12,773 nt of DNA from a virus. The position numbers were made by a program, and so were the translations under genes. The stretch lies in the UHGV virus genome UHGV-1672225. One strand, 5' to 3'. Shown piece by piece: positions 1-11,683 of this stretch; within the stretch, counting starts at the first letter, position 1; every line of letters starts with the position of its first letter. The notes beneath the pieces are model-generated. The model worked only from the letters and a program-made list of their open reading frames with translations. It had not been told where the DNA came from and ran no database searches.

Positions 1-11
1 AGAAATATATA

Positions 12-221
12 TTACTTTGGACAGTTGATTTCCCATGCCATGTTATGAGCCAGAATATCTTTCTTTGTCTGGCGGTCCATAACATCGATGTCGTGATCAG
101 TCAGGTAGATGGGCTTTACCCAATCACAGGCGGTATCAACCACCACCGGGACGCTTCCACGACTCCCGCAGCTCGCGATCAACATCGTCATCAGCCATAT
201 GGTTAACACTCTGCTGTACAT
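12..221 (-). CDS. Rz1-like o-spanin lipoprotein (overlapping the Rz-like gene in another frame)
   Basis: 69-aa ORF with an N-terminal hydrophobic signal and lipobox-like LIASC; starts inside and extends past the 3' end of the Rz-like ORF at 136..414, as in spanin pairs at the end of lysis cassettes. Confidence 0.4.
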   Translation of the reverse strand: MYSRVLTIWLMTMLIASCGSRGSVPVVVDTACDWVKPIYLTDHDIDVMDRQTKKDILAHNMAWEINCPK

Positions 222-414
222 TCCCCACCTCTTTTGTCACTTCTATACGCCGCTCCGCAGTGGCTTTTACGGCGGCTGCATTCTCATTAATGCGCTGCTT
301 TTCAGCTTCATCTTCGGCCTTTTCTCGCCCTTTCATACGACCAAAACCAAACGCGCCGAATGCAACCAATATAATTGTGCCAATAAATGACAACACGGCC
401 TTCAAACCAGTCAT
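136..414 (-). CDS. Rz-like i-spanin (N-terminal TM segment plus charged coiled-coil region)
   Basis: 92 aa; N-terminal hydrophobic stretch LKAVLSFIGTIILVAFGAFGF followed by a K/E/R-rich helical region; immediately downstream of and 4-nt overlapping the endolysin gene. Confidence 0.5.
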   Translation of the reverse strand: MTGLKAVLSFIGTIILVAFGAFGFGRMKGREKAEDEAEKQRINENAAAVKATAERRIEVTKEVGNVQQSVNHMADDDVDRELRESWKRPGGG

Positions 415-953
415 ACCACCACTCGCTCTTTCATCCAGCCGTAGACAAACGACTCATTAGCCTCGCGCTTCTCCGCCAACTCCAGATAGCGTTCGCCCTG
501 CGTACAGTTCAGCGACGTCAGCATCACCCGTTCGCCGTCTTTTCCCCGATTCCCAAGATAAGCACGTAGCGCATTAATGGTACGTGGACCGATTCGTCCG
601 TCTGCATCCAAATCGGGATACAGCTTCCCGCGCAGGTTGAACACATTCAGCCAGCGTTGAAGCATTTTTGACGCCACTATTGGCCCCATGTTCACCCCCG
701 TGTCACACAGCTCTGCGGCAATATCAGAGGATAATGCGGCCACCTGATCAAAGCGTGGTCCGTACCAGTAATCAGCCTCAAGGATTTCCAGTGCCTGTTC
801 GCGGGTTAAATCGCGCATATCGCCACGGTATCCATGAGCACGGGCAGTGTTCTGAGTAATGCCCCACTTTGTTGGGCCTCCCTTGTCGTCAGGGTGATCC
901 ACATAGCCGCCCTCTTTTCCAAGAACGCTGTTAAAAATCTCATCTTTGGTCAT
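411..953 (-). CDS. Endolysin, GH108-type N-terminal domain with C-terminal peptidoglycan-binding domain
   Basis: 180 aa; the N-terminus (KEGGYVDHPDDKGGPTKWGIT) matches the recalled glycoside hydrolase 108 signature; position between membrane/holin genes and spanins. Confidence 0.7.
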   Translation of the reverse strand: MTKDEIFNSVLGKEGGYVDHPDDKGGPTKWGITQNTARAHGYRGDMRDLTREQALEILEADYWYGPRFDQVAALSSDIAAELCDTGVNMGPIVASKMLQRWLNVFNLRGKLYPDLDADGRIGPRTINALRAYLGNRGKDGERVMLTSLNCTQGERYLELAEKREANESFVYGWMKERVVV

Positions 954-1236
954 GATTAAACCCTAATGCGTCAACTATCCGCGCCAGATTGCCCCTGAAA
1001 TACAGAACAACGATGCAGATAATCAGATTTCCAATAACCACCAGCCAGTGGGATTCTTGATAAAGACCGAACACATAACGGAAGGGAACATTGGCGTATA
1101 CAATGACGTAGATATAAGCCAGAAAGGAAACAAATGGACGATGCCTGGAGTCTTTCCGTCGATAAAGCATCAGCGCCATTACTATTACTGTGCAAAGCAC
1201 CGCATTAATCAGTGCTGACGGGTCACTGCTTACCAT
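940..1236 (-). CDS. Small multi-pass membrane protein in the lysis cassette (holin/antiholin-like partner)
   Basis: ORF track gives 940..1272; I prefer the ATG at 1236, preceded by GGAGGGGG. Three hydrophobic segments; overlaps the holin-like gene end and the endolysin start. Confidence 0.4.
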   Translation of the reverse strand: MVSSDPSALINAVLCTVIVMALMLYRRKDSRHRPFVSFLAYIYVIVYANVPFRYVFGLYQESHWLVVIGNLIICIVVLYFRGNLARIVDALGFNHDQR

Positions 1237-1618
1237 TTGAACCCCCTCCACGTAAGCGGGAAAGCATTCCAAAGATGCTACCGAGATCCTGGCTGTTTAC
1301 GAACGTGAGGATTTTAATGGTCAATGCAGCCACAATAACCGCACCAAGCGCATCCAGAGGACGATCGTTGTAGCTGGTCCATTTGGCAAGAAATGAGCCA
1401 ACTAACGGCGCTCCAATCACTCCAACAATGAACGATGTAAAGAAATAGCCAATCAGCTTGAGACGGCTAATATTCACCGCTGTAGCAACATAGAAAACAG
1501 CGCCAGCAAATGCCCCGAATACAACGCCGTAATCAATACCAGTTGCAATACCAAAAACGCTGGCACCCATCAGGCCACCAGCAGCAACGGCCGTACCGGA
1601 AATTGGTTCTGCTGACAT
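1223..1618 (-). CDS. Holin-like membrane protein
   Basis: ORF track gives 1223..1666; I prefer the internal ATG at 1618 (MSAEPISG...), preceded by GAGGA. Gly/Ala-rich multi-TM protein, first gene after an intrinsic terminator, directly upstream of the endolysin. Confidence 0.5.
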   Translation of the reverse strand: MSAEPISGTAVAAGGLMGASVFGIATGIDYGVVFGAFAGAVFYVATAVNISRLKLIGYFFTSFIVGVIGAPLVGSFLAKWTSYNDRPLDALGAVIVAALTIKILTFVNSQDLGSIFGMLSRLRGGGSNGKQ

Positions 1619-1631
1619 TGAAATCCTCGTT

Positions 1632-1663
1632 AAAAAAAAGCCCCGCCGAAAAAGGCAGGGCTT
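1632..1663 (-). terminator. Intrinsic terminator (tR'-like) immediately upstream of the holin RBS
   Basis: Minus-strand RNA forms a 10-bp GC-rich stem (one G-U) with a 6-nt loop, followed by a run of U (8 A on the plus strand at 1632-1639). Confidence 0.6.
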
Positions 1664-1995
1664 CATAAAGCAACAAATTACGCGGTAATCGCTTAACGCA
1701 GTTTTACTACGTTAAATGAAACACTACACCCAGTTACCACCTAAAACAAGGTTTCCCCATAAAAAAACCTTCATATCGTGGTTAATCGATCAATAAAAAA
1801 GCAACGTTCAACTTTTTACCAACTGAACATCCCGACCAGGACTTCCATAATATTCGCCGATATTCCACTGCTTAAGTTGAGTAATCTTCTCCAACTTAAC
1901 TCCCACAGAATCCAATTTCTGCCATGTTTTCGGTTGTATGTGCCTCATTACCCGCTCTGAATATCTAAATACTGCTCGTAGCCTCGCTAAATTGC

Positions 1996-2703
1996 TCACT
2001 TGTCGCCTCCTTTACGAATCTGTTCCGCCCACTCCTCAAGAGATTTCTCCGCATATTCACCGGACAGGCCATCAATCGGATGCGGTTCATTAGCCAACTC
2101 TTCTTTCGCTGACAAAATCATGCGTGTAACGTCGAAAACTTCACGCAAAGATTTATTGATAAATCCGTGATTGAACGCAGCAGCAAGACGGCTGGCGGTA
2201 TAGTTAATCCCCTCGTTGCGTGCTTCCGCACGAATTTCAGCCAGAAAAGCATCGGTGGCTGAAATATTTCCTGTTGCCTTCATGGCCCCCAAAATAACCA
2301 GAACGCCATCTCGCCCAACCTCCTCAGCGATAACCTCGGTGTTGTCGCCAACAACATCGCAGAATGCCTGAACTGCCTTACGAGCCAGCTCATTCTCCGC
2401 CGCCAGCGCCGCACGACTGGCCTCCAGTTCAGCAATGCGTTTGCTTTGTGCTTCCCGTTCATTCAGCAACGCCTGCACTACTTCTGGGTTGAAAGCTGCG
2501 ATATAACGAGCGTTGTTCTCTGCGTTTTTCTGTCCGTCGAATCCTGGCCAGTCGACAATATCTCCGTGATGATTATCTCCTGGTGTGTGCACAGCGTACG
2601 TGCCGTGTTTGCCCGGCGAAATAAATGCGACCCATTCGCCCTGTGTTGCCTGTTTTGCTATCTCACGTAGCGCCTGATAGTTAATTGCTGTGCTGTTAGT
2701 CAT
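1996..2703 (-). CDS. Ea22-like (ead/Ea22 family) phage protein with coiled-coil middle region
   Basis: Start placed at ATG 2703 (GGAGG 8 nt upstream, 4 nt after the stop of the upstream gene) rather than the ORF-track start at 2748. N-terminal INYQALREIAKQATQGEW resembles the recalled Ea22-like signature; an A/E/L-rich heptad region follows. Confidence 0.45.
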   Translation of the reverse strand: MTNSTAINYQALREIAKQATQGEWVAFISPGKHGTYAVHTPGDNHHGDIVDWPGFDGQKNAENNARYIAAFNPEVVQALLNEREAQSKRIAELEASRAALAAENELARKAVQAFCDVVGDNTEVIAEEVGRDGVLVILGAMKATGNISATDAFLAEIRAEARNEGINYTASRLAAAFNHGFINKSLREVFDVTRMILSAKEELANEPHPIDGLSGEYAEKSLEEWAEQIRKGGDK

Positions 2704-3040
2704 TCCAGGCCTCCAGCTCGTTCTGAATCTCCTCGTCAACCTCGTCATTGGTGGCGTCTTCGTTCAGATGGTCGCGCGCCTCTTTGAGATACTGTTCACG
2801 GCGTTCGTGGTACCAGGCTGAGAACTCCGGCGACCATCCTCGATTAGCCCCCTGAAAATCTACCATCGCATTATCCTCGGCCATACGCTCGACCATGCAA
2901 TCCGCGGTGTTCAGTGCAACCTCACGGATGTACCCCCGCAGGTCGCGCTTACGCCAATACGGGCTATATTTTGAGTCGCAGCGGCCTTTAAATTCGACGG
3001 TCCAGCGACGGATGCAGCGTGCGTTAAGTGATTTGCTCAT
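2696..3040 (-). CDS. Hypothetical acidic protein (114 aa)
   Basis: ORF with AAGGAAG RBS; tightly packed between the ASCH gene and the Ea22-like gene; no recognisable family. Confidence 0.45.
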   Translation of the reverse strand: MSKSLNARCIRRWTVEFKGRCDSKYSPYWRKRDLRGYIREVALNTADCMVERMAEDNAMVDFQGANRGWSPEFSAWYHERREQYLKEARDHLNEDATNDEVDEEIQNELEAWND

Positions 3041-3042
3041 AG

Positions 3043-3663
3043 TTATGCTTCCTTAATACGCTTAAACTCAATTACCCATACCCACGGGTTAGATAGCCAG
3101 TTCTCTTGCCCGTAAATACCGCGCCAGATATCACCAAAGCCAACGCGATAAACAGCTTCCGGCGGTGTAATCTTGTACGTCACCGGAGATGCGCCTTCTG
3201 CTTTAGCATCTGCCTCGCTCATGTCATGCAGCCGCTCCACACGCACGTCGGTAATTTCCAGCAAAATACGCGAAGCCCAGCGCGGCATGTGAATCGACGG
3301 GGTCCAGCCCTCAGCTGGCTTGCTACTATCTGAGTAATCAGCCTTGTAATCACACAGTTCAGAAGCCAGAGAGACACCATCTTTGATTTCCTGAATGACA
3401 TCGTTATCCAGCCAAAAAGCGTTGAATGTTTCACGGACCCATATGCGATCACCAACGTTACCGAACGGGCATAAACCATGTTCCAGTGCATCCATAACGT
3501 GGGTATAGACACCATTGCGTTTCTTTGTCGGTTTACGGATAACCAGGCAGTTATCGGCCCTGACATTTTTTACAGGTCGGCGAGTCTGCGTCTTCCTGCC
3601 TTCGAGGATGGCCCTGACCATCGCATCATTAAAAATCATGCCGCGCTCTTTCATCTTGCTCAC
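3043..3663 (-). CDS. ASCH (PUA-like) domain protein
   Basis: N-terminal MIFNDAMVRAILEGRKTQTRR and C-terminal VWVIEFK match the recalled YqfB/ASCH signature. Start placed at GTG 3663, which overlaps the upstream stop as GTGA and has GGAGG upstream; an in-frame ATG at 3654 is the alternative. ORF-track ATG at 3726 rejected. Confidence 0.55.
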   Translation of the reverse strand: MSKMKERGMIFNDAMVRAILEGRKTQTRRPVKNVRADNCLVIRKPTKKRNGVYTHVMDALEHGLCPFGNVGDRIWVRETFNAFWLDNDVIQEIKDGVSLASELCDYKADYSDSSKPAEGWTPSIHMPRWASRILLEITDVRVERLHDMSEADAKAEGASPVTYKITPPEAVYRVGFGDIWRGIYGQENWLSNPWVWVIEFKRIKEA

Positions 3664-4025
3664 TTCAACTCCTCCCGACGACGTTCCTGAAGCTCTAGCA
3701 TTGCGGCTCGGAAATCCTGCCACCATTCCTCATCTGCAACGGGGGTGTTCCGCTCCAGCACCTTGTCCGCATCGGCGATCAGGTTTGCCAGAATCTTGTC
3801 TGAAATCTTCGTTACCGGAGTCGTTGGTTGCTCAACCTGCCCGATAGGTTTTATCGTGCTCAAAAGGAGGCGACGGCGGGAAAGTGGTGCCCCACAACGA
3901 CGGCCATCTTCCTTGCGATATGTTTCTTTCGGACCAACACACCAGGTTGTCGGCGTTTCGCGCAACTTCACTCTTTTCTCACCATCATTGGTAATGATTA
4001 TTCCGGTATGGGTTTTGATGCTCAT
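3660..4025 (-). CDS. Hypothetical protein (121 aa)
   Basis: ORF whose ATG overlaps the stop of the upstream wHTH gene (ATGA) and whose stop overlaps the ASCH gene start. Confidence 0.45.
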   Translation of the reverse strand: MSIKTHTGIIITNDGEKRVKLRETPTTWCVGPKETYRKEDGRRCGAPLSRRRLLLSTIKPIGQVEQPTTPVTKISDKILANLIADADKVLERNTPVADEEWWQDFRAAMLELQERRREELK

Positions 4026-4303
4026 GCCACAGCCCCTCTCAACGGCTTAACTTTGGCTAATAAGGTGTTAAACAACATGGAGTTAGGATTCATGCCAAAT
4101 GGCAATTCCGGTTTAGCGGAGTAGTACAGGCAACCATTTATTTTCCTAGTTGTTATCTGTCCTTCGGCAACCATGCTTCTCAGTCTGCAACGCATAGAGT
4201 TCTGCGACACACCAATGTGCTCCGCGATTACGTCCACTTTTGAACATGGGTGATCGGTCAGGAAATTAATCACATCTTGGGGGTTAATAATTTTGCGTTT
4301 CAT
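4022..4303 (-). CDS. Winged-helix DNA-binding protein, FaeA/PapI-like
   Basis: Start at ATG 4303 (AAGGA upstream) rather than 4324. The pattern INFLTDHP...VIAEHIGVSQNSMRCRLRSMVAEGQI resembles recalled PapI/FaeA-family regulators. Confidence 0.4.
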   Translation of the reverse strand: MKRKIINPQDVINFLTDHPCSKVDVIAEHIGVSQNSMRCRLRSMVAEGQITTRKINGCLYYSAKPELPFGMNPNSMLFNTLLAKVKPLRGAVA

Positions 4304-4348
4304 TGTCGAGGCGTCCTTATACATTTGTATAAATATATAATTCTATAT

Positions 4349-4370
4349 ACGGCGGGAGACGTCCCGCCGT
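4349..4370 (-). terminator. Perfect 9-bp GC-rich hairpin after the DUF3560-like gene (possible terminator or RNA stability element)
   Basis: ACGGCGGGA-gacg-TCCCGCCGT, 12 nt after the stop at 4381; the downstream minus-strand sequence is AT-rich but not a clean U-run. Confidence 0.4.
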
Positions 4371-4380
4371 AGGCTTACTG

Positions 4381-5448
4381 TCAGGCTTTCAATAGCGATT
4401 CTTTTAGATATCGGGCATCAGCCAGGGCGTTTGGAGTAATCTTGCGAACCCATGCATTACGGGTTGGACTCCACTTAAAGGCGCGTGATTTAAGCAGCGA
4501 ACGAATGTTTGCCTCTGGTTTGCCAGGGAAATAAAACAGGATGCGGTTATCCTCTGGATCTATCTCCATAGAAAAGCCGTCGTATTCTTCGCGCTGTGCT
4601 CCTGTTACAGACTTGACCGATTCAAGCTCCTTAATACGGCTCTGTAGTCGTTTGATTTCGGCGTTATTGTTGCTCAGTGCGTATGAAGGGAATCCGATGC
4701 GCCCACAGAAATCTCCGGCCAGTAACTCTTTGGCTTCGCTTTCTGTAAACCTGAGATCGATTAATGCAGAAAGCTGCTGTATTTGGTCTTTTTTGTATTT
4801 GCGAATGGCCTTATTTGCGGCCTTCATTTTGACGTGTGACTTCATGCAGCCTTGCAGCTTACGAAGCAACTTAAATAGCGCATCAGGATCATCAGACGAA
4901 ATTCCATTACGACCAACACCTGCGGCTTTGCTCTCGTAGTGTGATGCTTTACTTTCGCATTCAACAAACGCTTTTCTGAATAACGCATCAGCTTTAGACA
5001 AACGGCGGCGATGGCCTTTCGCGCTATAATGGTCAACTAAAATCGGCTGGCCTAACGGGATCACATCCAACAGGTCATGCGCTCGCTTATGCGCTACCGC
5101 ACCTTCTTTTCTGGCTTTTTCTGCACGAGCAATATATCGGGCAAGACGCGCGTTCTGGCGTTCCTGATAGGTGTTTACGTAATCATCTCCGCGCTGCTGC
5201 TGTTCAAGCCATGCTTTGCGCAGATCTTCTGTTACGTCCACCAGCTCCGCAGGGATACAACCAGTTTGGGCTTCATAAGAGTAACCATCCTCATAGATAC
5301 GCCCATCGTCTTCAACAAAGAAAAAGGTTTCGTGCTCATCGCTTTTGACCATACGACCATTAACATGGCGTAATAGGTAGCCAGTATCAGTGCTTAACAG
5401 GCTGTTAGGGTTGTTGATCCAGTCAGAAATAATTACTTGTTTATTCAT
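4381..5448 (-). CDS. DUF3560-like protein (355 aa), function unknown
   Basis: Start at ATG 5448 (GGAGA 7 nt upstream) rather than 5529. Central GQPILVDHYSAKGHRRRL resembles the recalled DUF3560 motif; long K/E-rich helical middle region. Confidence 0.45.
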   Translation of the reverse strand: MNKQVIISDWINNPNSLLSTDTGYLLRHVNGRMVKSDEHETFFFVEDDGRIYEDGYSYEAQTGCIPAELVDVTEDLRKAWLEQQQRGDDYVNTYQERQNARLARYIARAEKARKEGAVAHKRAHDLLDVIPLGQPILVDHYSAKGHRRRLSKADALFRKAFVECESKASHYESKAAGVGRNGISSDDPDALFKLLRKLQGCMKSHVKMKAANKAIRKYKKDQIQQLSALIDLRFTESEAKELLAGDFCGRIGFPSYALSNNNAEIKRLQSRIKELESVKSVTGAQREEYDGFSMEIDPEDNRILFYFPGKPEANIRSLLKSRAFKWSPTRNAWVRKITPNALADARYLKESLLKA

Positions 5449-5616
5449 CAGATTTCTCCGGTTTAACCAGGGCGGGTATCGCTCGGTTTCGGGTATAACA
5501 TAGGAAATTTTTTCCCACCTGTAAAGCACTTTTTATATAAATCTATAATTATATATTTATAGATTTTCGATGTTCCCGATGTCTACACACCATCAAAACA
5601 GCTCAAAATGACACTT

Positions 5617-5994
5617 TTACTCTCTTCGCTTTTTCAAATAGTCGACAACATACGCCCTGGCTTTTGCCAGCTTCCGGCGATACTGTCTGAGGCTAAGAGA
5701 AAGGGCGTGGGCTTTATCAATATGCGGTGCATTTATGTCGAGGCCCCGAATCTCCCACGCCCCGTATTCAATTCGGACAACCAGCGCCGCAGTCTCATCA
5801 ACTACCGTGAGGGCCGTCACCGCTCCCTCTATACTGGTTTCCAGTGAGTCATTTGGTGCGCCGCCCCCTCCGGTAAACTGGCAGCGCGTAACCATCATCA
5901 TTTCTAACATCGACGCGAAACCGCTACGGGCGTTGCAGCCATTGCGCACCCACAGCGCCCATAGCTCAAACAAGCTATCCAGATCGCGTCTCAC
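5617..5994 (-). CDS. Candidate Q-like antiterminator (Phage_antitermQ-type), GTG start
   Basis: 125 aa; N-terminal LFELWALW and C-terminal basic helix loosely resemble the small Q-like antiterminator family; sits at the end of the nin-like block. Weak call. Confidence 0.35.
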   Translation of the reverse strand: MRRDLDSLFELWALWVRNGCNARSGFASMLEMMMVTRCQFTGGGGAPNDSLETSIEGAVTALTVVDETAALVVRIEYGAWEIRGLDINAPHIDKAHALSLSLRQYRRKLAKARAYVVDYLKKRRE

Positions 5995-5997
5995 TGT

Positions 5998-6330
5998 TCA
6001 GATCTCCCGTATCGTGACGGGATAAAGCGCCTCTACCTGCTTTTTCTTCATGATGTAGACGTCTGTTCGCACACCTTTAGTGTCGACACAATCAATCGTC
6101 CCATCGTCATAAAACACCATGAAATCAAGTTTATAAACGACACCACCTGGCAGATGAAAAGGCACCTGCATAAGAAACGTCACAACGCGGCCAGCTTTTC
6201 TCAGTAGCTTCAGTTCGCAGTAGTAATCAGCCTCTTTTTTGCTATCAAAAGCGATATCATCGACAACCGTTTTTTTATTGCCGTATTTGCTTTTCCTTGT
6301 CGCTGGTTTGCGAAAGCCGGTATATCTCAT
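5998..6330 (-). CDS. DUF1064 family phage protein
   Basis: YGNKKTVVDDIAFDSKKEADYY matches the recalled DUF1064 signature; ATGA-coupled to the upstream Ref-like gene. Confidence 0.55.
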   Translation of the reverse strand: MRYTGFRKPATRKSKYGNKKTVVDDIAFDSKKEADYYCELKLLRKAGRVVTFLMQVPFHLPGGVVYKLDFMVFYDDGTIDCVDTKGVRTDVYIMKKKQVEALYPVTIREI

Positions 6331-6731
6331 TTGGTATCCCCTGGTACTTCACCAAGACTAAGATCAAACCCAATTTCGTCTTTAACTGACTGCGGCAACA
6401 GCTCCCACGTCTGCGCACACAAAAATTCATCTGTGCCATAACGCTCAACAAAGCGAGCACAATTACTCAGGGGAGGGTGACGAACGGCAATATGCGGAGG
6501 CACACGCCCACCACCAGGCACAACACCGCGATGATGTGGTGCGCACAACCCAAAGCTATGGAAGTGGCAATTCTCATCAACGCTGCCGTAATCAGGATCG
6601 TGATGTAGCTCCGTCCACAGCTCTGGATTCTCAATTTCACGGCCATCAATAATGCAAGCTATGCAACCCACGTGAGTGAGCACCGCTTGTATATAAAGTT
6701 TCTCTTTCTTCGTTGGTGTACGTCCGTTCAT
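6327..6731 (-). CDS. Ref-like recombination-enhancement HNH-type nuclease
   Basis: MNGRTPTKKEK...VGCIACII...HHDPDYG...GLCAPHHRG shows Cys/His spacing resembling the recalled P1 Ref-family/HNH pattern. Confidence 0.45.
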   Translation of the reverse strand: MNGRTPTKKEKLYIQAVLTHVGCIACIIDGREIENPELWTELHHDPDYGSVDENCHFHSFGLCAPHHRGVVPGGGRVPPHIAVRHPPLSNCARFVERYGTDEFLCAQTWELLPQSVKDEIGFDLSLGEVPGDTK

Positions 6732-6964
6732 CAGCGCCCCTTACCATTGATAAAGAGGTTGAACTCGTTGATTAACTGGACATACATGCTTCTGGCCGCG
6801 TAGTTCTTTGCCAGCTCTTTACGGGATGAGATCCCGCAAAACTCACGCAGAATCACAGAGGCCTCAGAACTGTTTGAAACGTTCTTCCCTGTTTTACTGG
6901 TCAGAAAGCGCCAGAATTGGGGATTCTGGCAATGCATCGCAGCACCGCGAACATAACTACTCAT
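6731..6964 (-). CDS. Hypothetical protein (77 aa)
   Basis: ORF overlapping both neighbours' start/stop codons (ATGA at 6961-6964; TGATG at 6729-6733). Confidence 0.4.
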   Translation of the reverse strand: MSSYVRGAAMHCQNPQFWRFLTSKTGKNVSNSSEASVILREFCGISSRKELAKNYAARSMYVQLINEFNLFINGKGR

Positions 6965-7476
6965 TGATGGCCCCCGTCATTTCTGGTGCTTTTCACCGTG
7001 CGGCTTCTTAAAAACCTGCCATCACGAACAACAGACACTTCTCGTTTACCCAACCTCATTTCACGGCGGTAACATTCAGAAAATGCCTCGTCCGGCATCA
7101 TATAAATGCGACGCTTCGCCTCCGTATCCAGAAGGGAACGGCTTGGGGTTACATATAAGAACGACTCATCAATAGGGACAAAACCACGAGCAAGAATTGC
7201 TGGCAGAATACCAGGAAGAACGCAGAAAACAGCTCCACGATGCAGCAACATCTGGTACTCCATGACCTCCGTAATCCCCGTAACGACTGTTACGGTGTCA
7301 CGTCTGTTACGGCTGGCAACCAGTCGCTGCACACCTCCAATTTTCTGCTCTACAGATAGACGTTTGCTATCGTTATCAATATGATCGATAACAAATCCTT
7401 TAATCGTTTGATCAAGGTAGTGCACCACCTGCGATTGAATCTGGTGATTATCACCAAAGAAGGCCAGAATCATCAT
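6961..7476 (-). CDS. Hypothetical early protein (171 aa)
   Basis: ORF ATGA-coupled to the upstream Cro-like gene; no family recognised. Confidence 0.45.
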   Translation of the reverse strand: MMILAFFGDNHQIQSQVVHYLDQTIKGFVIDHIDNDSKRLSVEQKIGGVQRLVASRNRRDTVTVVTGITEVMEYQMLLHRGAVFCVLPGILPAILARGFVPIDESFLYVTPSRSLLDTEAKRRIYMMPDEAFSECYRREMRLGKREVSVVRDGRFLRSRTVKSTRNDGGHQ

Positions 7477-7967
7477 TCCTCAAGCCTCCCAAGTGCTGAA
7501 CGCCGGGCGTTGCTAATCTCCTTATGAATCAGCTCGATATCGCTGGAATCTTTATTCTTAAGCTCCAGCACGGTAATCGCATCACGAACCTCTGAAACGG
7601 TTACGTGTGAGTGTTTCCAGCGAGCAATGAATCGCGGACCGCGTAGATTGCAACGCTCCGCAGGCATCCCCAGCTCAGAGAAAACCGCTTTCAGCCTTGA
7701 TAAGCAGTTAACAGGGAGATTCCCTTTGATCTTGTTCTGCCGAACCGATGTGCCATCGCTACGCTGGCGCTGACGTTCGGCAAAATCTGCCGCCCATTGC
7801 TGGACGTTAATCCGGCCTTCCGAATACGCCACCAGCAGCGTCAGGTTATCCGCACGAGGGAATCTCTCGAAGCGATACCAGGCACCAATCAGTGATGACG
7901 TAAAGCCAAACTTTCTGGCAACACCAATTTGGCCTCCATTTTCGTCAACCCACTCCTGAAAGGTCAT
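7473..7967 (-). CDS. Cro-like HTH early regulator with C-terminal extension
   Basis: Divergent from the CI-like gene; helix-turn-helix-like segment GGQIGVARKFGFTSSLIGAWYR near the N-terminus; GGAG RBS; sigma70-like promoter and operators immediately upstream. Confidence 0.45.
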   Translation of the reverse strand: MTFQEWVDENGGQIGVARKFGFTSSLIGAWYRFERFPRADNLTLLVAYSEGRINVQQWAADFAERQRQRSDGTSVRQNKIKGNLPVNCLSRLKAVFSELGMPAERCNLRGPRFIARWKHSHVTVSEVRDAITVLELKNKDSSDIELIHKEISNARRSALGRLEE

Positions 7968-7986
7968 TTAACGAACTCCAGTTAAA

Positions 7987-8022
7987 ACCACGATACGTGG
8001 TATTAAAACCACATATCGTGAG
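7987..8022. promoter_or_regulatory. Two adjacent operator-like palindromes (ACCAC-N5-GTGGT type)
   Basis: ACCACGATACGTGGT at 7987-8001 is a perfect inverted repeat; ACCACATATCGTGAG at 8008-8022 is imperfect. Both are preceded by AAA. Confidence 0.55.
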
Positions 8023-8030
8023 TTTTTCAA
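8002..8030 (-). promoter_or_regulatory. pR-like sigma70 promoter for the leftward early operon
   Basis: On the minus strand TTGAAA (8030-8025), a 17-nt spacer, then TTTAAT (8007-8002); the spacer is operator B and the predicted start lies in operator A. Confidence 0.5.
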
Positions 8031-8089
8031 TGGGCGAAACAAAAAATAACCTTCTATTTGTGGTCCACCTCTCGTCTTACCATGTGAAA

Positions 8090-8104
8090 ACCACTAAATG
8101 TGGT
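8090..8104. promoter_or_regulatory. Operator-like palindrome on the repressor-proximal side
   Basis: ACCACTAAATGTGGT, a perfect 5-bp half-site inverted repeat about 40 bp upstream of the CI-like start. Confidence 0.5.
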
Positions 8105-8141
8105 AATGTATAAATAACCCACCATTCACGATTGATGAGAC

Positions 8142-8798
8142 ATGAAAAGCAACGACGAGAACATCAAGAAAGAAATAGGTCTGCGCATTCAGACTCTACG
8201 GAAACAATCCGGCATGACTGCCGGAGATCTCCAGCAAGTCACTGGAATAGGCTTAAGCACCTTGCAGAACTATGAGGCCGGATTAAGACAACCATCTATA
8301 CCTGCCATCAAGAAAATCGCGCACGCCCTGAAAGCATCAGCGCCTTATATCGCGTGCTTAACAGATAACCCGTTCCCACCCCAGAATACTAACGCTCCTG
8401 TTATTCCTGGGCTTGTAGCTATAAAAAATGACATAGCATCGCACGCCGGAGAAAAGCCAGTGCTGGCGATAGAACAGGAGATTCTACGAAGCAAGAACAT
8501 CAACCCATCGTCTCTGTCAGTTCTCCAGAGCAACGATGAGTTAATGTCACCAACAATATCCCCAGGCTCCCAAGTCCTGATTAATACAGACGATACAGAG
8601 ATTCATGAGGGGATCTATGCCCTTGAAGACAGAAATGGCCTGGTTGTTTTGAGGCACTGTAGAGTCATACCGGGTGACAATGCTGTTATGCTGTCAACCG
8701 AAAGGGATGCTGAAATGAACACTAAGCATCTGAATAACGAGGAATTTAAGCGTTATAAAGTTCTTGGCCGCGTAGTTAGTGTTGTCAACTGGTTATGA
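8142..8798 (+). CDS. CI-like phage repressor (XRE-type HTH plus S24 LexA-like peptidase domain)
   Basis: N-terminal LRIQTLRKQSGMTAGDLQQVTGIGLSTLQNYEAG is HTH-like; the C-terminal 100 aa has an S24-like fold pattern; divergent from the Cro-like gene. Confidence 0.7.
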   Translation: MKSNDENIKKEIGLRIQTLRKQSGMTAGDLQQVTGIGLSTLQNYEAGLRQPSIPAIKKIAHALKASAPYIACLTDNPFPPQNTNAPVIPGLVAIKNDIASHAGEKPVLAIEQEILRSKNINPSSLSVLQSNDELMSPTISPGSQVLINTDDTEIHEGIYALEDRNGLVVLRHCRVIPGDNAVMLSTERDAEMNTKHLNNEEFKRYKVLGRVVSVVNWL

Positions 8799-8804
8799 TA
8801 CACA

Positions 8805-8822
8805 GCACGGCGAAAGCCGTGC
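8805..8822 (+). terminator. Hairpin after the repressor gene (weak or partial terminator)
   Basis: GCACGGC-gaaa-GCCGTGC, 7-bp stem with a GAAA loop, followed by ATTTCT. Confidence 0.35.
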
Positions 8823-8840
8823 ATTTCTACGCTCAAAAAA

Positions 8841-8855
8841 ACCACATTTTGTGGT
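8841..8855. promoter_or_regulatory. Fourth operator-like palindrome, downstream of the CI-like gene
   Basis: ACCACATTTTGTGGT, same half-sites as the switch-region sites; a TTGACA lies 2 bp downstream at 8857-8862. Confidence 0.5.
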
Positions 8856-8890
8856 TTTGACAACATGTAAAAGTATAAAAGAGGCTACGC

Positions 8891-9265
8891 ATGGAATTAC
8901 ATACAGCCAATAAAAACGAAACTCTGATCACTGCTGGAATCGAAATCCAAGCGTTGAACATAGCGATTGAGTGTATGTTATGCCAAATCATTGATAATGA
9001 GAAAGATATCGACTGGATAGAATCTATCCTTCATCTGGCATCAGAACAAAAAGTCTGCCTCAAAACGGCCTTACAATACGATGTGCCAGCGGTATCGAAG
9101 CTGTGCCAGCCATTGATGGCATATAACAGGGCTATTATTTCTGTATGCCTCATGATTCTTGATGAAACCCCCCCTCTTAGCGACCGCTCAGAAGCTGCTC
9201 TAACCCTCTCACGTAAACAGCGACAGCTAGCAAATCAACTGATATCAACGATAGCTGACCTCTGA
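8891..9265 (+). CDS. Hypothetical protein (124 aa) downstream of the repressor
   Basis: ORF with AAGAGG RBS, own operator-like site upstream and an intrinsic terminator downstream. Confidence 0.5.
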   Translation: MELHTANKNETLITAGIEIQALNIAIECMLCQIIDNEKDIDWIESILHLASEQKVCLKTALQYDVPAVSKLCQPLMAYNRAIISVCLMILDETPPLSDRSEAALTLSRKQRQLANQLISTIADL

Positions 9266-9269
9266 CTGC

Positions 9270-9289
9270 AAGCGGGCTAACGCCCGCTT
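9270..9289 (+). terminator. Intrinsic terminator-like hairpin after the 124-aa gene
   Basis: AAGCGGGC-taac-GCCCGCTT, 8-bp stem, followed by AT-rich sequence. Confidence 0.45.
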
Positions 9290-9290
9290 A

Positions 9291-9392
9291 TATGATTATA
9301 GATTTATATAATTATATAAAACGCTTTTCATCAGCCAAAAAGTTGGTTATGCTTACCTCGTTCTATAAATATAGATTTATAGAATTATATAA
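9291..9392. promoter_or_regulatory. AT-rich arrays with TATA boxes at 8-bp phase upstream of parA (candidate operator or centromere-like site)
   Basis: 9296-9321 TTATAGATTTATATAATTATATAAAA and 9361-9392 TTCTATAAATATAGATTTATAGAATTATATAA; the second also contains the palindrome TCTATA-AA-TATAGA. Confidence 0.4.
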
Positions 9393-9415
9393 CCAAACAC
9401 ATGGAGTCTCGACAA

Positions 9416-10069
9416 ATGACTATCTCTGTAGGTATTTTCAACGGAAAAGGCGGCGTAACAAAATCAACAATTGCCCGTGCTTTAGCAGTTGCTTATGCAA
9501 AGGCTGGCTGGAATGTATGCCTGATCGATATGGATGTGCTTAACGGAACGGTAACGCGTTGGGTACAACGCAGAATGGCCAACAATATCGAACCAGCAAT
9601 CGCGGCGCAGCCGTGCGGCACACCATCACAAGTCCAGAAAATCATCGAATCAGAAGTATACGACCTGGTTATCGTCGATGGCGGTGCCTACGCATCTGAA
9701 TCAGTACCGAAGCTATCTGAATTTCTGGATATGGTTATTTTGCCAACCCGATTCTCTACCGATGACCTGGAAACCACCGTTAACACTGCTCACGGCATCG
9801 TTAAAAAGGGTGTACCAATCAAGAAAATTTGCATGGTGTTTTCCGGCGCGGCTGAAAACGAAGCTGACTATATTGAAGCCCAAGAGTACCTGGCTAATAC
9901 GCCATACTTTGTTGTCGATAAGTACATTCCCCACAAGCCAGCTCTGAGCAAAGCTCAGGATAAGGGCTTAAGCCTCATTGAGTGCTCATACGTTGCGCCA
10001 CGCAAAAAGGCAGACGACGTTATTCAGGGGATTATCAACCAGCTTGAGGCTCTGACTACTGCCGCATAA
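9416..10069 (+). CDS. parA: Small ParA-family (deviant Walker A) ATPase, type Ib partition-like
   Basis: Start at ATG 9416 (GGAG 10 nt upstream) rather than 9401. Deviant Walker A GKGGVTKST, Walker B-like DLVIVDG, about 217 aa. Confidence 0.65.
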   Translation: MTISVGIFNGKGGVTKSTIARALAVAYAKAGWNVCLIDMDVLNGTVTRWVQRRMANNIEPAIAAQPCGTPSQVQKIIESEVYDLVIVDGGAYASESVPKLSEFLDMVILPTRFSTDDLETTVNTAHGIVKKGVPIKKICMVFSGAAENEADYIEAQEYLANTPYFVVDKYIPHKPALSKAQDKGLSLIECSYVAPRKKADDVIQGIINQLEALTTAA

Positions 10070-10100
10070 TATATAATTATAGTTTTATAGATTTATATAA
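10066..10100. promoter_or_regulatory. Third TATA-phased AT-rich array between parA and the RHH gene
   Basis: TATAtaatTATAgtttTATAgattTATAtaag: four TATA boxes at exact 8-bp spacing, overlapping the parA stop. Confidence 0.4.
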
Positions 10101-10112
10101 GAGGGGATACAC

Positions 10113-10361
10113 ATGGCCGCACCATCAAAACCACCAAAGAAGAACAGCAAAGGCGTACCGCCATCGATCGAACAACCGCAGGTTTTCGACCCGACTGAAA
10201 CGCCAACCAGAACCAAATCAGGTGGGGCACAAATGGCGTTTAACGTCGACCCTGAATTTAAACGCGAGTACAAAACGTTCGCCAGCTCAATGGATATGTC
10301 ATTGAAAGAAGTGCTGACAAAGTCTTTTGAGTTACTCAAGGCTCAATACAACCAGAAGTAA
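10113..10361 (+). CDS. Ribbon-helix-helix DNA-binding protein, ParG-like partner of ParA
   Basis: 82 aa; flexible basic N-terminal tail, then MAFNVDPEFKREYKTFASSMDMSLKEVLTKSFELLKAQ with a beta-strand/helix/helix pattern; AAGAGGGGA RBS. Confidence 0.5.
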   Translation: MAAPSKPPKKNSKGVPPSIEQPQVFDPTETPTRTKSGGAQMAFNVDPEFKREYKTFASSMDMSLKEVLTKSFELLKAQYNQK

Positions 10362-10423
10362 GAGAAGGTGACGGCCTCCAGCGCCAACTGTTGGCCGTCG
10401 CGACACAACAAGGGGAATTTGTT

Positions 10424-10573
10424 ATGTCCGAGCAACAATATACACGGTTACTGAAAACTCGTCTAACCGACCTCAAACGGCTGCAAGCTGGCTGCTTATT
10501 TGCCCTGCTATCCACCAGGCCAGAATGGGTACGTGAAGCAGTTCTGAAAGGCTTAATGCGCTCCAGCGTTTAA
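10424..10573 (+). CDS. Small hypothetical protein (49 aa)
   Basis: ATG at 10424 with AAGGGGAA RBS; last ORF before the terminator at about 10590. Confidence 0.3.
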   Translation: MSEQQYTRLLKTRLTDLKRLQAGCLFALLSTRPEWVREAVLKGLMRSSV

Positions 10574-10590
10574 ATTCAGCCATAAAAAAA

Positions 10591-10606
10591 GGCCCCCGAA
10601 GGGGCC
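10591..10606 (-). terminator. Intrinsic terminator hairpin (minus-strand orientation, possibly bidirectional)
   Basis: GGCCCC-cgaa-GGGGCC preceded on the plus strand by 7 A (a U-run on the minus transcript); no T-run on the plus side. Confidence 0.45.
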
Positions 10607-11132
10607 TAATCGCTACTTGCTGCTAATGTTTATCGTCACATTCAGAGCGTTATCAGTAATCTTCCAACCCTCCCCATGTGGCGTAAACAAAGCCCCAGTA
10701 ACAACGATAAAAATACACATACAGTATTTTTTCATTGTATGGCCCTTACAGGCCGTTTCACGGCATCCCCACCGACGAAAACAACGCGAGAGCAAGCACG
10801 GCTGCTTGTGCTTGCATGTACGGCAACGGAGAATCCTCCCCTAAAGTCGGTGCCCGGGTGCGAATCGGCGGGAAGGTCCACAGGTATTTTACGATTATTT
10901 TAAGATTAGTAATAGGAAAGAAATTAAACGAAAAAACTCGTTTATTTTCACAAAATCAGTAACCTACCCACAATCTGTGAGTTTGCAGGCACAACAAGAA
11001 CCACAATTTTTTGAAGCATAATAGTGGACTATTATTACCTTTTGGGTAAAATTAACTTGCTGCTTGTGCTTGCGTGGTTGTTTATACAACAACGTAATGC
11101 TGAAAGGACCGCGAATCCGATCAGCACGAAAG

Positions 11133-11159
11133 AACCGTCCTCAATAGGGCGGTTTTTTT
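11133..11159 (+). terminator. Intrinsic terminator inside the ORF-poor region
   Basis: AACCGTCC-tcaata-GGGCGGTT (8 bp, one G-U) followed by TTTTTGTTT. Confidence 0.5.
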
Positions 11160-11305
11160 GTTTCTGCCTACCAATAAACCCACGCTATGTGGTTGTCTCT
11201 GTTAAAATCCTGCCGTATTGACATGAATGCGCCATTGGTGGACACTTTCCGAGCCGTAGCAAAATCTACGGTCGGGATTGGAACCCCGATAATCATCATG
11301 GCGCA

Positions 11306-11326
11306 TACCGCGTTAGCGGTTTTTTT
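11306..11326 (+). terminator. Second intrinsic terminator in the leader (candidate sRNA 3' end)
   Basis: ACCGC-gtta-GCGGT followed by a 6-T run; a perfect -35 TTGACA lies about 90 nt upstream at 11218-11223. Confidence 0.4.
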
Positions 11327-11491
11327 ATGCGTAAAGCACTGCTACACCCAAATTATGGTGGGGCGTGCGGGGGAGTCGTAAGACTCGCCGGATTCCATGG
11401 TGACCGGTAGTTCCAACCCTGTACGTCTCACCACCCAATGATTGGAACCAGACGGTGGTGAGTATCCTTAACCTTTAAGGGAACTATCACC

Positions 11492-11683
11492 ATGACAAAC
11501 TTACCCCATGACTATTACGTCAATCTCGTAAAGATCCTTCTCAAGAAAGCCTCATACGCCGATAAATTCCGCCTGACTGAAATCATCGAGCGCGAAGCTA
11601 TGCGCATCGCCAGCAACGATAACGCTGTTTCTGACGCAAAAATCTCCCTCGTAACCAAAGTAGTTATGGGAGGTGCAAAATGA
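11492..11683 (+). CDS. Small protein (63 aa) translationally coupled to the antirepressor-like gene (icd-like position)
   Basis: ORF with AAGGGA RBS; its stop overlaps the next ATG (ATGA at 11680-11683). Confidence 0.4.
   Translation: MTNLPHDYYVNLVKILLKKASYADKFRLTEIIEREAMRIASNDNAVSDAKISLVTKVVMGGAK

What the first reader, a model, noticed from the sequence alone, without database searches (positions are those of the whole stretch)
4325..5567. The same TATA-phased AT-rich arrays bracket the DUF3560-like gene in the late/accessory region
Five sites in the window (4325-4348, 5531-5567, 9296-9321, 9361-9392, 10066-10100) share the motif TTATAGATTTATATAA and carry three or four TATA boxes spaced exactly 8 bp apart. 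The 8-bp phase of short boxes is what ParG-type RHH proteins recognise. Site 5531-5567 is also a 10-bp inverted repeat, AAATCTATAA-N8-TTATAGATTT, about 50-85 bp downstream of the Q-like gene. Sharing one array family between the parA/RHH locus and the DUF3560 gene implies one DNA-binding protein coordinating both.
Basis: seen in the sequence. Interest (0 to 1): 0.75.

Follow-up and report, generated by a model that had tools for sequence, protein, structure and literature searches.

The report
Scattered binding arrays of a partition protein
The AT-rich "TATA" arrays are real 32-bp blocks of four 8-bp units scattered over an E. coli phage-plasmid, and they are most likely the binding sites of its small ParG-like partition protein, a known design (ParG, omega, KorB, N15) in a protein family nobody has annotated.

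Summary
The window has five complete arrays (4317-4348, 5533-5564, 9288-9319, 9361-9392, 10069-10100) and a truncated sixth (1-12). Each is four 8-bp units, W-T-n-T-A-n-A-W. Shuffles give none, and 100 kb of E. coli K-12 has none.

The window is part of a 47-49 kb myovirus-like phage-plasmid that carries eight arrays per replicon.

The 82-aa gene after parA is a ribbon-helix-helix protein with a disordered tail, like ParG, and the ATPase is ParF-like.

Three comparisons tie all the arrays to this protein:
- A Salmonella relative keeps all eight arrays while their flanks diverge.
- A syntenic relative whose RHH protein is 44% identical has eight arrays built on a different unit (wTCTTTAw), at the par locus and at scattered sites alike.
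- An unrelated conjugative plasmid shares only ParA and the RHH protein among the candidate binders tested, yet has TATA-type arrays at its par locus and inside its T4SS operon.

Other family members have 8-bp-phased arrays with other cores.

Best reading: these are centromere/operator sites of a type Ib partition protein that also sit at operon boundaries, so the protein may act as an omega-like global regulator. Binding and regulation are untested.

Verdict: new member of a known kind, moderate interest.

The parts
1..12 (.). Last 12 nt (AGAA ATATATAT) of a sixth array, cut by the window edge
   Evidence: Window 1-2265 aligns to L001 28816-31080. L001 28796-28827 is the four-unit array CTATATAT TTATATAA TTATAGAA ATATATAT.
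4022..4303 (-). 93-aa winged-HTH (MarR/FaeA-like) gene, the first gene after array S1
   Evidence: Weak Pfam FaeA/HTH_24 matches; phrog_1687, MarR-family regulator; RefSeq start in L001.
4317..4348 (.). Array S1: four 8-bp units, ending 13 nt upstream of the wHTH start codon and abutting its ribosome-binding site
   Evidence: Conserved in position in the Salmonella relative (L002 39389-39420).
4350..4369 (.). G+C-rich hairpin (CGGCGGGA-GACG-TCCCGCCG) between the DUF3560 stop and S1
   Evidence: Read from the sequence. The same hairpin-plus-array pairing recurs in relatives.
4381..5451 (-). DUF3560 gene (355 aa), lying between S2 and S1
   Evidence: Pfam DUF3560, E = 3.8e-31; phrog_6744, and the C-terminal half matches a 'primase' PHROG.
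5444..5555 (-). Repeated cassette of about 113 bp (array, promoter, 5'UTR, ATG), present three times per replicon
   Evidence: Window 5444-5555 matches L001 27570-27683 and 43147-43259 at about 95.6%. Six-copy alignment.
5497..5525 (-). Sigma-70-like promoter TTTACA-17-TATGTT, whose -35 hexamer starts 8 nt downstream of S2
   Evidence: Conserved in all six cassette copies of the E. coli and Salmonella elements.
5533..5564 (.). Array S2: four units containing the inverted repeat; read on the - strand it is 90% identical to S4 read on the + strand
   Evidence: I2.
9271..9288 (+). Hairpin after the 124-aa gene, running directly into S3
   Evidence: Read from the sequence.
9288..9319 (.). Array S3, the distal array upstream of parA
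   Evidence: L002 has the equivalent.
9361..9392 (.). Array S4, the proximal array, ending 23 nt before the parA start
9416..10069 (+). parA: a small (217 aa) Walker-type ATPase, ParF-like
   Evidence: Pfam CbiA/ParA/MipZ; phrog_164, ParA-like. The family profile's best solved relatives are 5u1g ParA and 4dzz ParF, E about 1e-15 over the full length.
10069..10100 (.). Array S5, filling the gap between the parA stop codon and the ribosome-binding site of the RHH gene
   Evidence: The same arrangement occurs in L002, the conjugative plasmid L012 and L214.
10113..10361 (+). 82-aa ParG-like ribbon-helix-helix gene (disordered residues 1-40, strand 41-46, two helices): the proposed binder of all arrays
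   Evidence: phrog_6024, function unknown.

Best explanation
The arrays are the cognate DNA sites of the 82-aa ParG-like ribbon-helix-helix protein encoded at 10113-10361. Together with the ParF-like ATPase (9416-10069), this protein forms a type Ib partition system of a 47-49 kb phage-plasmid.

Proposed mechanism:
- Each 8-bp unit (core T-n-T-A-n-A) takes one RHH dimer, so a 32-bp array is coated cooperatively by four dimers.
- S3 and S4 upstream of parA, and S5 between parA and the RHH gene, serve as centromere and autoregulatory operator.
- The same 32-bp module is scattered at five further places in the replicon, always in short non-coding slots at operon boundaries.
- There it adds partition-complex sites. 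Because it sits directly upstream of a repeated sigma-70 promoter (S2 and its two copies) or against a ribosome-binding site (S1, S5), it probably also puts DUF3560, the wHTH/accessory/lysis block, the MT-A70 block, the late operon and a 126-aa/HTH operon under repression by the partition protein, as omega does in pSM19035 and KorB does in RK2.

Shown: the arrays, their non-randomness, their conservation, the RHH and ParF relationships, and the co-variation.
Inferred: binding, stoichiometry, centromere activity and repression.
For: 1. Arrays are non-random and precisely built.
2. The protein:
- No Pfam hit for the window protein itself.
- Of 80 remote homologues, 33 match RHH_10, 21 Antitox_RHH, 8 56B_RHH and 5 ParG.
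- The best solved sequence match of the family profile is ParG 1p94, in the RHH register, E = 0.11. hhalign against ParG gives 68% probability, E = 5e-5.
- The AF2 model has residues 41-80 at pLDDT of about 90 or more, with a beta-alpha-alpha layout and a disordered tail.
- The top-ranked Foldseek PDB hits are RHH proteins, including ParG.
3. The ATPase profile matches ParF and ParA of the TP228 type over the full length, E about 1e-15.
4. Conservation under divergence. The Salmonella element is 80% identical at the par locus and 71% around DUF3560. It keeps all eight arrays in place, with altered unit details and diverged flanks.
5. Co-variation. The syntenic relative L008 (RHH protein 44% identical) has eight arrays of wTCTTTAw, none of the TATA type, at the par locus and scattered; shuffles give 0.
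6. The arrays travel with the module.
- Conjugative plasmid L012 has ParA (45% identical) and a family RHH protein (hhalign 98.8%).
- Its TATA-type arrays lie upstream of parA, between parA and the RHH gene, and inside the T4SS operon.
- It has no homologue of the wHTH, 124-aa, 125-aa or DUF3560 proteins.
7. Eight further ParA+RHH loci have 8-bp-phased arrays with other cores. Two of three testable predictions stated beforehand from the strand residues were met.
8. Precedent.
- ParG binds one dimer per 4-bp box plus 4-bp spacer, and its operator doubles as a centromere (PMC3130281).
- Omega sites overlap three promoter regions, and at least four contiguous repeats are needed to activate the ParA ATPase (PMC9499535). 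Seven of the eight arrays of the replicon have exactly four units.
Against: - No binding, stability or expression data exist.
- One prospective prediction failed: a stand-alone RHH protein with the same strand triad as L008 has AACGAAAC repeats.
- The scattered arrays have no uniform position relative to promoters. Some are upstream of a -35, some abut a ribosome-binding site, some follow hairpins. That fits 'a centromere wherever non-coding space allows' as well as it fits regulation.
- L001 and L012 also share a small toxin-antitoxin region next to one array, so ParA and the RHH protein are not the only shared genes of that pair.
Confidence: 0.75

Rival explanations
1. The arrays do bind the RHH partition protein, but the scattered copies are only extra centromere sites, as in the linear prophage-plasmid N15. 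They sit wherever 32 bp of non-coding DNA is tolerated and have no role in transcription.
For: - The scattered arrays lie in mixed positions: after hairpins, against ribosome-binding sites, between virB9 and virB10 in L012.
- All are complete four-unit modules, the minimum that activates a ParA ATPase in the omega system (PMC9499535).
- N15 has four separate centromere sites, IR1-4 (PMC7205306).
Against: - In the three cassette copies, the array and the sigma-70-like promoter are duplicated and conserved as one block, with the array 8 nt from the -35.
- In ParG, omega and KorB the same sites also repress transcription (PMC3130281, PMC9499535, PMC11790492).
Confidence: 0.3
2. A different protein reads the arrays: the 93-aa wHTH protein next to S1, the 124-aa protein upstream of parA, or a host nucleoid protein that prefers AT-rich DNA (H-NS, IHF, Fis).
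For: - The wHTH gene starts 13 nt from S1.
- A 124-134-aa gene lies next to parA in several relatives.
- The arrays are extremely AT-rich.
Against: - L012 has the arrays but no homologue of either protein. The 14 kb examined of L008 has arrays of its own type and no detectable homologue of either.
- Unit sequence changes with the RHH protein across loci that share only ParA and the RHH protein.
- A host protein would not explain a switch from TATA to CTTTA units.
- Other AT-rich stretches of the replicon and of E. coli lack arrays.
Confidence: 0.08
3. The arrays need no dedicated protein. They are promoter parts (stacked -10-like or UP-element DNA) or the U-rich tails of the adjacent terminator hairpins.
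For: - The units resemble TATAAT.
- S2 lies where an UP element would.
- S1 and S3 directly follow G+C-rich hairpins.
Against: - This does not explain the strict 8-bp period, the fixed four-unit length, the mixed unit orientation, or arrays wedged between a stop codon and a ribosome-binding site (S5, L012 11984).
- It does not explain the replicon-wide switch to CTTTA units in L008, or CATG- and CGAA-type units in other ParA+RHH loci.
Confidence: 0.04
4. The arrays are operators of the cI-like prophage repressor (8142-8798).
For: cI homologues are present in the phage-plasmid relatives that carry arrays.
Against: - The cI gene is flanked by a different repeat, AAAACCAC-N6-GTGGT-like, around 7990-8110 and at 8838-8863 (D3).
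- The only cI match in L012 is a weak 65-residue HTH segment.
- Metagenomic ParA+RHH loci with arrays have no cI next to them.
Confidence: 0.02

Closest known systems
ParF-ParG-parH/OF of plasmid TP228 (type Ib partition)
   Same: - Small Walker ATPase followed by a small protein of about 80 aa with a flexible N-terminal tail and a C-terminal RHH domain.
- Sites are short boxes repeated every 8 bp (4-bp box plus 4-bp AT-rich spacer), in direct and inverted orientation, one dimer per box. The operator doubles as a centromere (PMC3130281).
- ParF is among the best solved matches of the ATPase profile, and ParG is the best solved sequence match of the RHH profile.
   Different: - Sequence similarity to ParG is marginal and there is no Pfam ParG hit for the window protein.
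- The unit core is TnTAnA, not ACTC.
- Sites come as discrete 32-bp blocks of four units rather than 8+12 contiguous boxes. One block lies between the two genes and five lie far from the par operon.
Omega (ParB) / Delta (ParA) of pSM19035 (inc18)
   Same: - An RHH centromere-binding protein that is also a global regulator.
- Several arrays of short contiguous repeats, in mixed orientation, overlapping promoters of genes beyond the par genes.
- At least four contiguous repeats are needed to activate the ATPase (PMC9499535), which matches the four-unit blocks here.
   Different: - 7-bp heptads (WATCACW) in runs of 7-10, against 8-bp units in runs of four.
- Firmicute plasmid, not a phage.
- No detectable sequence relationship was tested or found here.
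KorB-IncC of IncP-1 plasmid RK2
   Same: A partition protein whose sites are spread over the replicon and silence many operons, including transfer genes (PMC11790492, PMC5577506). The conjugative plasmid L012 has arrays inside its T4SS operon.
   Different: KorB is a ParB-family CTPase with an HTH domain that binds a single palindromic operator and slides. Here the binder is an RHH protein on tandem 8-bp units.
SopAB and the four separate centromere sites (IR1-4) of prophage-plasmid N15
   Same: A temperate phage maintained as a plasmid, whose partition sites are several separate copies rather than one block (PMC7205306).
   Different: N15 uses a type Ia SopB (HTH ParB) and single inverted repeats. 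The element here is a circular myovirus-like phage-plasmid with a type Ib RHH protein and four-unit arrays.

Membership tests
Type Ib (ParF/ParG-like) plasmid partition system | Small Walker-type ParA without an N-terminal DNA-binding domain, related to ParF | tested here: met
   217 aa; Pfam CbiA/ParA/MipZ. The family profile hits 5u1g ParA and 4dzz ParF over the full length, E about 1e-15.
Type Ib (ParF/ParG-like) plasmid partition system | Small centromere-binding protein with an RHH fold and a flexible N-terminal tail, encoded directly after parA | tested here: met
   - AF2: residues 1-40 at low confidence, 41-80 at pLDDT of about 90 or more, beta-alpha-alpha layout.
- The top-ranked Foldseek hits are RHH proteins, though E is only 0.4-1.
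- Homologues hit RHH_10, Antitox_RHH and ParG.
Type Ib (ParF/ParG-like) plasmid partition system | Arrays of short iterated sites next to the par operon | tested here: met
   S3, S4 and S5. The same holds in 11 of 12 other family ParA+RHH loci examined.
Type Ib (ParF/ParG-like) plasmid partition system | The protein binds the arrays, stimulates the ATPase and stabilises the replicon | not testable with these tools
   Needs EMSA or footprinting, ATPase assays and plasmid-loss assays.
Pfam ParG family (PF09274) | Significant match to the ParG profile | tested here: not met
   No Pfam family at E <= 0.1 for the window protein. Only 5 of 80 homologues match ParG, best E = 2.7e-4. The family profile against 1p94 gives E = 0.11. 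The protein works like ParG but is not a sequence member of that family.
Omega/KorB-type partition protein acting as global regulator | Cognate sites at promoters of operons other than the par operon | tested here: met
   Five of the eight arrays in L001 lie away from the par locus. Three sit 8 nt upstream of a conserved TTTACA-17-TATGGT promoter. This concerns location only.
Omega/KorB-type partition protein acting as global regulator | Repression of those promoters by the protein | not testable with these tools
   Needs reporter fusions or RNA-seq with and without the RHH gene.
N15-type dispersed centromeres of a prophage-plasmid | Several separate partition sites on a phage genome maintained as a plasmid | tested here: inconclusive
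   - The element is a phage-plasmid: structural genes plus repA in L001, with close relatives deposited as Yersinia phages.
- It has eight separate arrays.
- Centromere activity of each array is untested, and the protein class differs from SopB.

The most novel reading that the evidence does not exclude
The partition protein doubles as a copy-number sensor for the phage.
- In the plasmid state, the autoregulated RHH protein keeps the array-headed promoters shut: DUF3560, the MT-A70 block and the late operon.
- When the genome starts to replicate after induction, eight arrays per copy titrate the protein. Those operons then switch on in proportion to template number.
- The same 32-bp module is reused by conjugative plasmids to gate T4SS genes.
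Probability: 0.15. Interest if true: 0.75.

Novelty: new member of a known kind. Interest (0 to 1): 0.45.

Why it matters
- It gives a function to a widespread family of about 80-aa 'hypothetical' proteins (phrog_6024, no Pfam). Roughly 100 clusters at 50% identity appear in public data.
- It explains a conspicuous repeat in a phage-plasmid carried by 71 of 5,426 complete E. coli genomes, including the reference strain ATCC 25922.
- The family offers a natural series of RHH proteins with different 8-bp specificities. This is useful for studying beta-sheet DNA recognition and for building orthogonal partition or repressor parts.
- If the scattered arrays regulate transcription, this would be a case of a type Ib partition protein controlling phage lysis and late genes, linking plasmid maintenance to the lytic switch.

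Tried and rejected
- The PDB sequence search with close homologues alone found nothing relevant.
- A scan of IMG/VR with the degenerate four-unit pattern was swamped by AT-rich giant-virus bins, and the pattern is also satisfied by (AT)n runs. It says nothing about specificity.
With the ParA alignment it seeded on the Walker A motif and returned generic P-loop ATPases.
- I first guessed the element was a pSLy3-type phage-plasmid. That group belongs to the roughly 100-kb SSU5 supergroup, so the guess was dropped. I found no paper describing this element's par system. The pseudolysogenic Yersinia phage HQ103 paper mentions no par genes, and its relatedness is unknown.
- The shared 5'UTR of the three cassettes has no co-variation-supported RNA structure.
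- The 'type-2' hits in L001 and L002 are out-of-phase readings of the TATA arrays, not separate arrays.
- cI operators, a host AT-binding protein, bare promoter or terminator elements and chance were each considered and rejected, as set out under the rival explanations.
Full report
**What the window is.**
- The 12.8-kb window is 99% identical to 47-49 kb E. coli plasmids, and about 98% identical to three genomes deposited as Yersinia pestis phages, vB_YpM_39/41/44.
- One complete relative is NZ_LR130559.1 (L001, 47,288 bp). It has a full myovirus-type structural module, lysis genes, a cI-like repressor, repA, a RelE/HTH toxin-antitoxin pair and a parA gene. The element is therefore a phage-plasmid.
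- Window 1-12773 corresponds to L001 28816-41778.
- The par module occurs in 61 PLSDB plasmids and in 71 of 5,426 complete E. coli genomes, almost always on 47-51 kb plasmids, including that of ATCC 25922.

**The observation.**
- Each is a block of exactly four contiguous 8-bp units with sharp G+C-rich borders: S1 4317-4348, S2 5533-5564, S3 9288-9319, S4 9361-9392, S5 10069-10100.
- The unit is W-T-n-T-A-n-A-W. Over 20 units, T2, T4 and A5 never vary and A7 is present in 18. The core TnTAnA is its own reverse complement apart from the two free positions, so units occur in either orientation.
The other two carry 1-3 mismatches.
- The window also starts inside a sixth array (positions 1-12).
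- The 16-mer with up to 3 mismatches matches 13 times, all inside the five sites, against 0.14 expected.
- Arrays of three or more phased units number 5 in the window and 8 in the whole replicon, against 0.00-0.01 in dinucleotide shuffles.
- The repeat finder independently recovers the 32-nt family (D1).
  - 100 kb of E. coli K-12, including the AT-rich rfb/wca cluster, holds no array and not even a perfect two-unit match.
  - 379 kb of unrelated genomes hold none.
  - 17 of the 20 most AT-rich 100-bp windows of L001 hold none.

**Where the arrays sit.** L001 has eight arrays.
- Two lie upstream of parA (S3, S4).
- One fills the gap between the parA stop codon and the ribosome-binding site of the next gene (S5).
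- Five are elsewhere, all in short non-coding slots between blocks of the long minus-strand gene series:
  - after the early operon and before DUF3560 (S2);
  - after DUF3560 and its hairpin, before the wHTH/accessory/lysis block (S1);
  - after the lysis genes, before the MT-A70 block (the array cut by the window start);
  - before the ParB/Srx-terminase-structural genes;
  - before a 126-aa/HTH pair near the toxin-antitoxin genes.
- So the arrays do not bracket DUF3560 in any special sense.
- S2 is part of a cassette of about 113 bp that occurs three times per replicon. The cassette runs array, then 8 nt, then TTTACA-17-TATGGT, then a 5'UTR of about 55 nt, then ATG.
- The six copies from the E. 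coli and Salmonella elements are nearly identical within each element and share element-specific changes. That indicates concerted evolution of array plus promoter as one block.
- Read in the direction of the downstream gene, S2 is 90% identical to S4 (I2).

**The candidate protein.**
- The ORF after parA (10113-10361, 82 aa) has no Pfam hit and belongs to a PHROG of unknown function. The word-indexed search found only close relatives.
- A profile search of 1.8 billion cluster representatives found about 100 relatives of 60-90 aa.
- Their alignment shows a conserved basic, proline-rich N-terminus (K-x-x-x-K-G-x-P-P) and a C-terminal block, LNFkV-pEFkreFK-fA-dMSM-eLL-FE-yK.
- Of 80 members, 33 match Pfam RHH_10, 21 Antitox_RHH, 8 56B_RHH and 5 ParG.
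- The best solved sequence match of the profile is ParG of TP228 (1p94), aligned in the RHH register, E = 0.11. hhalign against ParG gives 68% probability, E = 5e-5. The N-terminal third of the ParG sequence I supplied there came from memory; residues 26-74 are those printed.
- With the 80-sequence alignment, AlphaFold puts residues 41-80 at pLDDT of about 90 or more. The model has an extended segment followed by helices 47-59 and 64-80, after a low-confidence tail.
- The ATPase is a 217-aa Walker protein. Its family profile matches ParA 5u1g and ParF 4dzz over the full length, E about 1e-15.
- Both proteins are therefore of the ParF/ParG kind, although the small one is not a sequence member of Pfam ParG.

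**Linking the arrays to the protein.** There are four lines of evidence.
1. Conservation under divergence.
   - The Salmonella Weltevreden element (L002) is 80% identical at the par locus and 71% around DUF3560.
   - It has arrays at all eight equivalent positions. Individual units differ (TTATAGAT against TTATATAA, for example) and the flanks have diverged.
2. Co-variation across scattered sites.
   - A syntenic relative (L008) has a cI-like gene, the same early operon, ParA 47% identical and an RHH protein 44% identical.
   - It has no TATA-type array but eight arrays of another 8-bp unit, wTCTTTAw or its complement: two upstream of parA, one after the RHH gene and five scattered.
   - One of the five lies at the junction after the early operon, where S2 lies in the window. 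Shuffles give none.
   - The 14 kb examined has no homologue of DUF3560, the wHTH protein or the 124-aa protein.
3. The arrays travel with the module.
   - A 28.5-kb MOBC/MPF_T conjugative plasmid (L012) has ParA 45% identical and a 77-aa family member (hhalign 98.8%, E = 6e-17).
   - TATA-type four-unit arrays lie upstream of parA and between parA and the small gene. Two more lie inside the T4SS operon, one of them between virB9 and virB10.
   - Nothing in it resembles the wHTH, 124-aa, 125-aa or DUF3560 proteins.
4. The 8-bp period is a family trait.

| Locus | Unit or core of the 8-bp-phased arrays |
|---|---|
| L006 | TTTCGCTA |
| L007 | CTTTAwwT |
| L009 | CATG plus 4 bp |
| L010 | TTTCGTTA |
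| L011 | GGTTTTnT |
| L214 | CTTTA type, again with a four-unit array between the two genes |
| L216 | TTCTATAA |
| L217 | TCTATC / GATAGA |

A prospective test looked at the three strand residues expected to face the DNA (window Q40, A42, N44).
- Proteins with the same pair at the last two of these positions share a unit despite about 40% overall identity. L007 and L008 share CTTTA; L006 and L010 share TTTCGyTA.
- I wrote down predictions before looking. Two of three testable ones were met (P0015, P0073). One failed (P0028, a stand-alone RHH protein without ParA).
- The residue code is suggestive, not established.

**How it most likely works.**
- By analogy with ParG, each unit should take one dimer and each array four. 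ParG binds one dimer per 4-bp box with 4-bp AT-rich spacers, in direct or inverted orientation, and its operator also works as a centromere (PMC3130281).
- In pSM19035, omega requires at least four contiguous repeats to activate the ParA ATPase (PMC9499535).
- S3, S4 and S5 would then be centromere plus autoregulatory operator.
- S5 sits between the stop codon and the ribosome-binding site, which suggests a roadblock that tunes the ratio of the two proteins. That is inference.
- The scattered arrays would give further partition-complex sites, as in N15 with its four separate IR sites (PMC7205306).
- Three of them are fused to a promoter, and others abut the first gene of a block. They probably also repress those operons, as omega does at copS, delta and omega (PMC9499535) and KorB does across RK2 (PMC11790492).
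- I put 0.75 on 'cognate sites of the RHH partition protein'. Given that, I put roughly even odds on a real regulatory role versus centromere-only.

**Rivals.**
- The wHTH and 124-aa proteins are excluded as general binders by L012 and L008.
- The cI-like repressor has its own, different repeat (AAAACCAC-N6-GTGGT-like) around its gene.
- A host AT-binding protein or a bare promoter or terminator role cannot explain the strict period, the fixed length or the replicon-wide switch of unit.
- One confounder remains for the L001-L012 pair. They also share a small region (a 94-aa gene and the RelE/HTH pair) next to one array. The metagenomic ParA+RHH loci, which lack that region in the stretches fetched, argue against it.

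**Novelty and score.**
- Every element of the design has a precedent: ParG for the 8-bp period and the tail-plus-RHH protein, omega for RHH arrays at several promoters, KorB for replicon-wide sites, and N15 for scattered centromeres on a prophage-plasmid.
- What is new:
  - the protein family is unannotated;
  - the sites come as discrete 32-bp four-unit modules;
  - the modules are spread through a phage genome, and through a T4SS operon in another plasmid;
  - a natural series of specificities exists.
- I rate it a new member of a known kind, interest 0.45.
- The most novel reading not excluded is a copy-number-sensing switch, in which replicating genomes titrate the protein and release the late and lysis operons. 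Probability is about 0.15.

Noticed in passing
window 7985-8110 and 8838-8863: A separate repeat, AAAACCAC-N6-GTGGT-like (for example AAAACCACATATCGTG and AAAACCACATTTTGTGGTTTTG), flanks the cI-like repressor gene (8142-8798). These are probably the repressor's operators. The diverged relative L008 has a different motif (TTTTGAAGT-like) at the same places.
   Followed up: partly
window 10585-10881 (-), 11253-11326 (+), 11351-11438 (+): Rfam matches above gathering score to ryfA, isrK and the C4 antisense RNA, upstream of an ORF6N/antirepressor-type gene in L001. This looks like a P1/P7-style immI (c4-ant) immunity module, present alongside the cI-like repressor.
   Followed up: no
window 5444-5555; L001 27570-27683 and 43147-43259; L002 38169, 45566 and 30365 onwards: A cassette of about 113 bp (array, promoter, 5'UTR, ATG) heads three different operons per replicon. 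It evolves in concert: the E. coli and Salmonella elements each have their own shared substitutions. RNAalifold found no co-variation-supported structure in the shared 5'UTR.
   Followed up: partly
window 4350-4369 and 9271-9288; L002 39370-39388; L008 9213-9237 and 10275-10296; L214 667-687: G+C-rich hairpins sit immediately next to many arrays, in both TATA-type and CTTTA-type elements. The AT-rich array may supply the U-tract of a terminator, or the hairpin may mark the edge of the protein coat.
   Followed up: no
L012 (NZ_CP037908.1) 11984-12015, 13759-13790 and 1444-1491: A cfr-carrying conjugative plasmid has four-unit TATA arrays inside its T4SS operon, one of them between virB9 and virB10. 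It also has an IS26-truncated fragment of the phage-plasmid cassette next to a shared RelE/HTH toxin-antitoxin pair, which is evidence of exchange between the two kinds of replicon.
   Followed up: partly
window 4381-5451 (-): The C-terminal half of the DUF3560 protein (residues 174-352) matches a PHROG annotated as primase (phrog_19458, E = 3e-37). This hints at a DNA-replication role for a domain of unknown function.
   Followed up: no
window 10113-10180 (N-terminus of the 82-aa protein): The family shares a basic, proline-rich N-terminal motif (M-A-x-x-x-K-P-x-K-x-x-x-K-G-x-P-P). It lies in the disordered tail, where ParG carries its ATPase-stimulating arginine finger. Here the conserved basic residues are lysines.
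   Followed up: no
whole window: Three genomes deposited as Yersinia pestis phages (vB_YpM_39/41/44) are 97-98% identical to E. coli plasmids of this family. The reference strain ATCC 25922 carries one (NZ_CP009073.1).
   Followed up: partly
Nothing here supports an antiterminator role. It is conserved (59% identity) in the diverged relative L008.
   Followed up: partly
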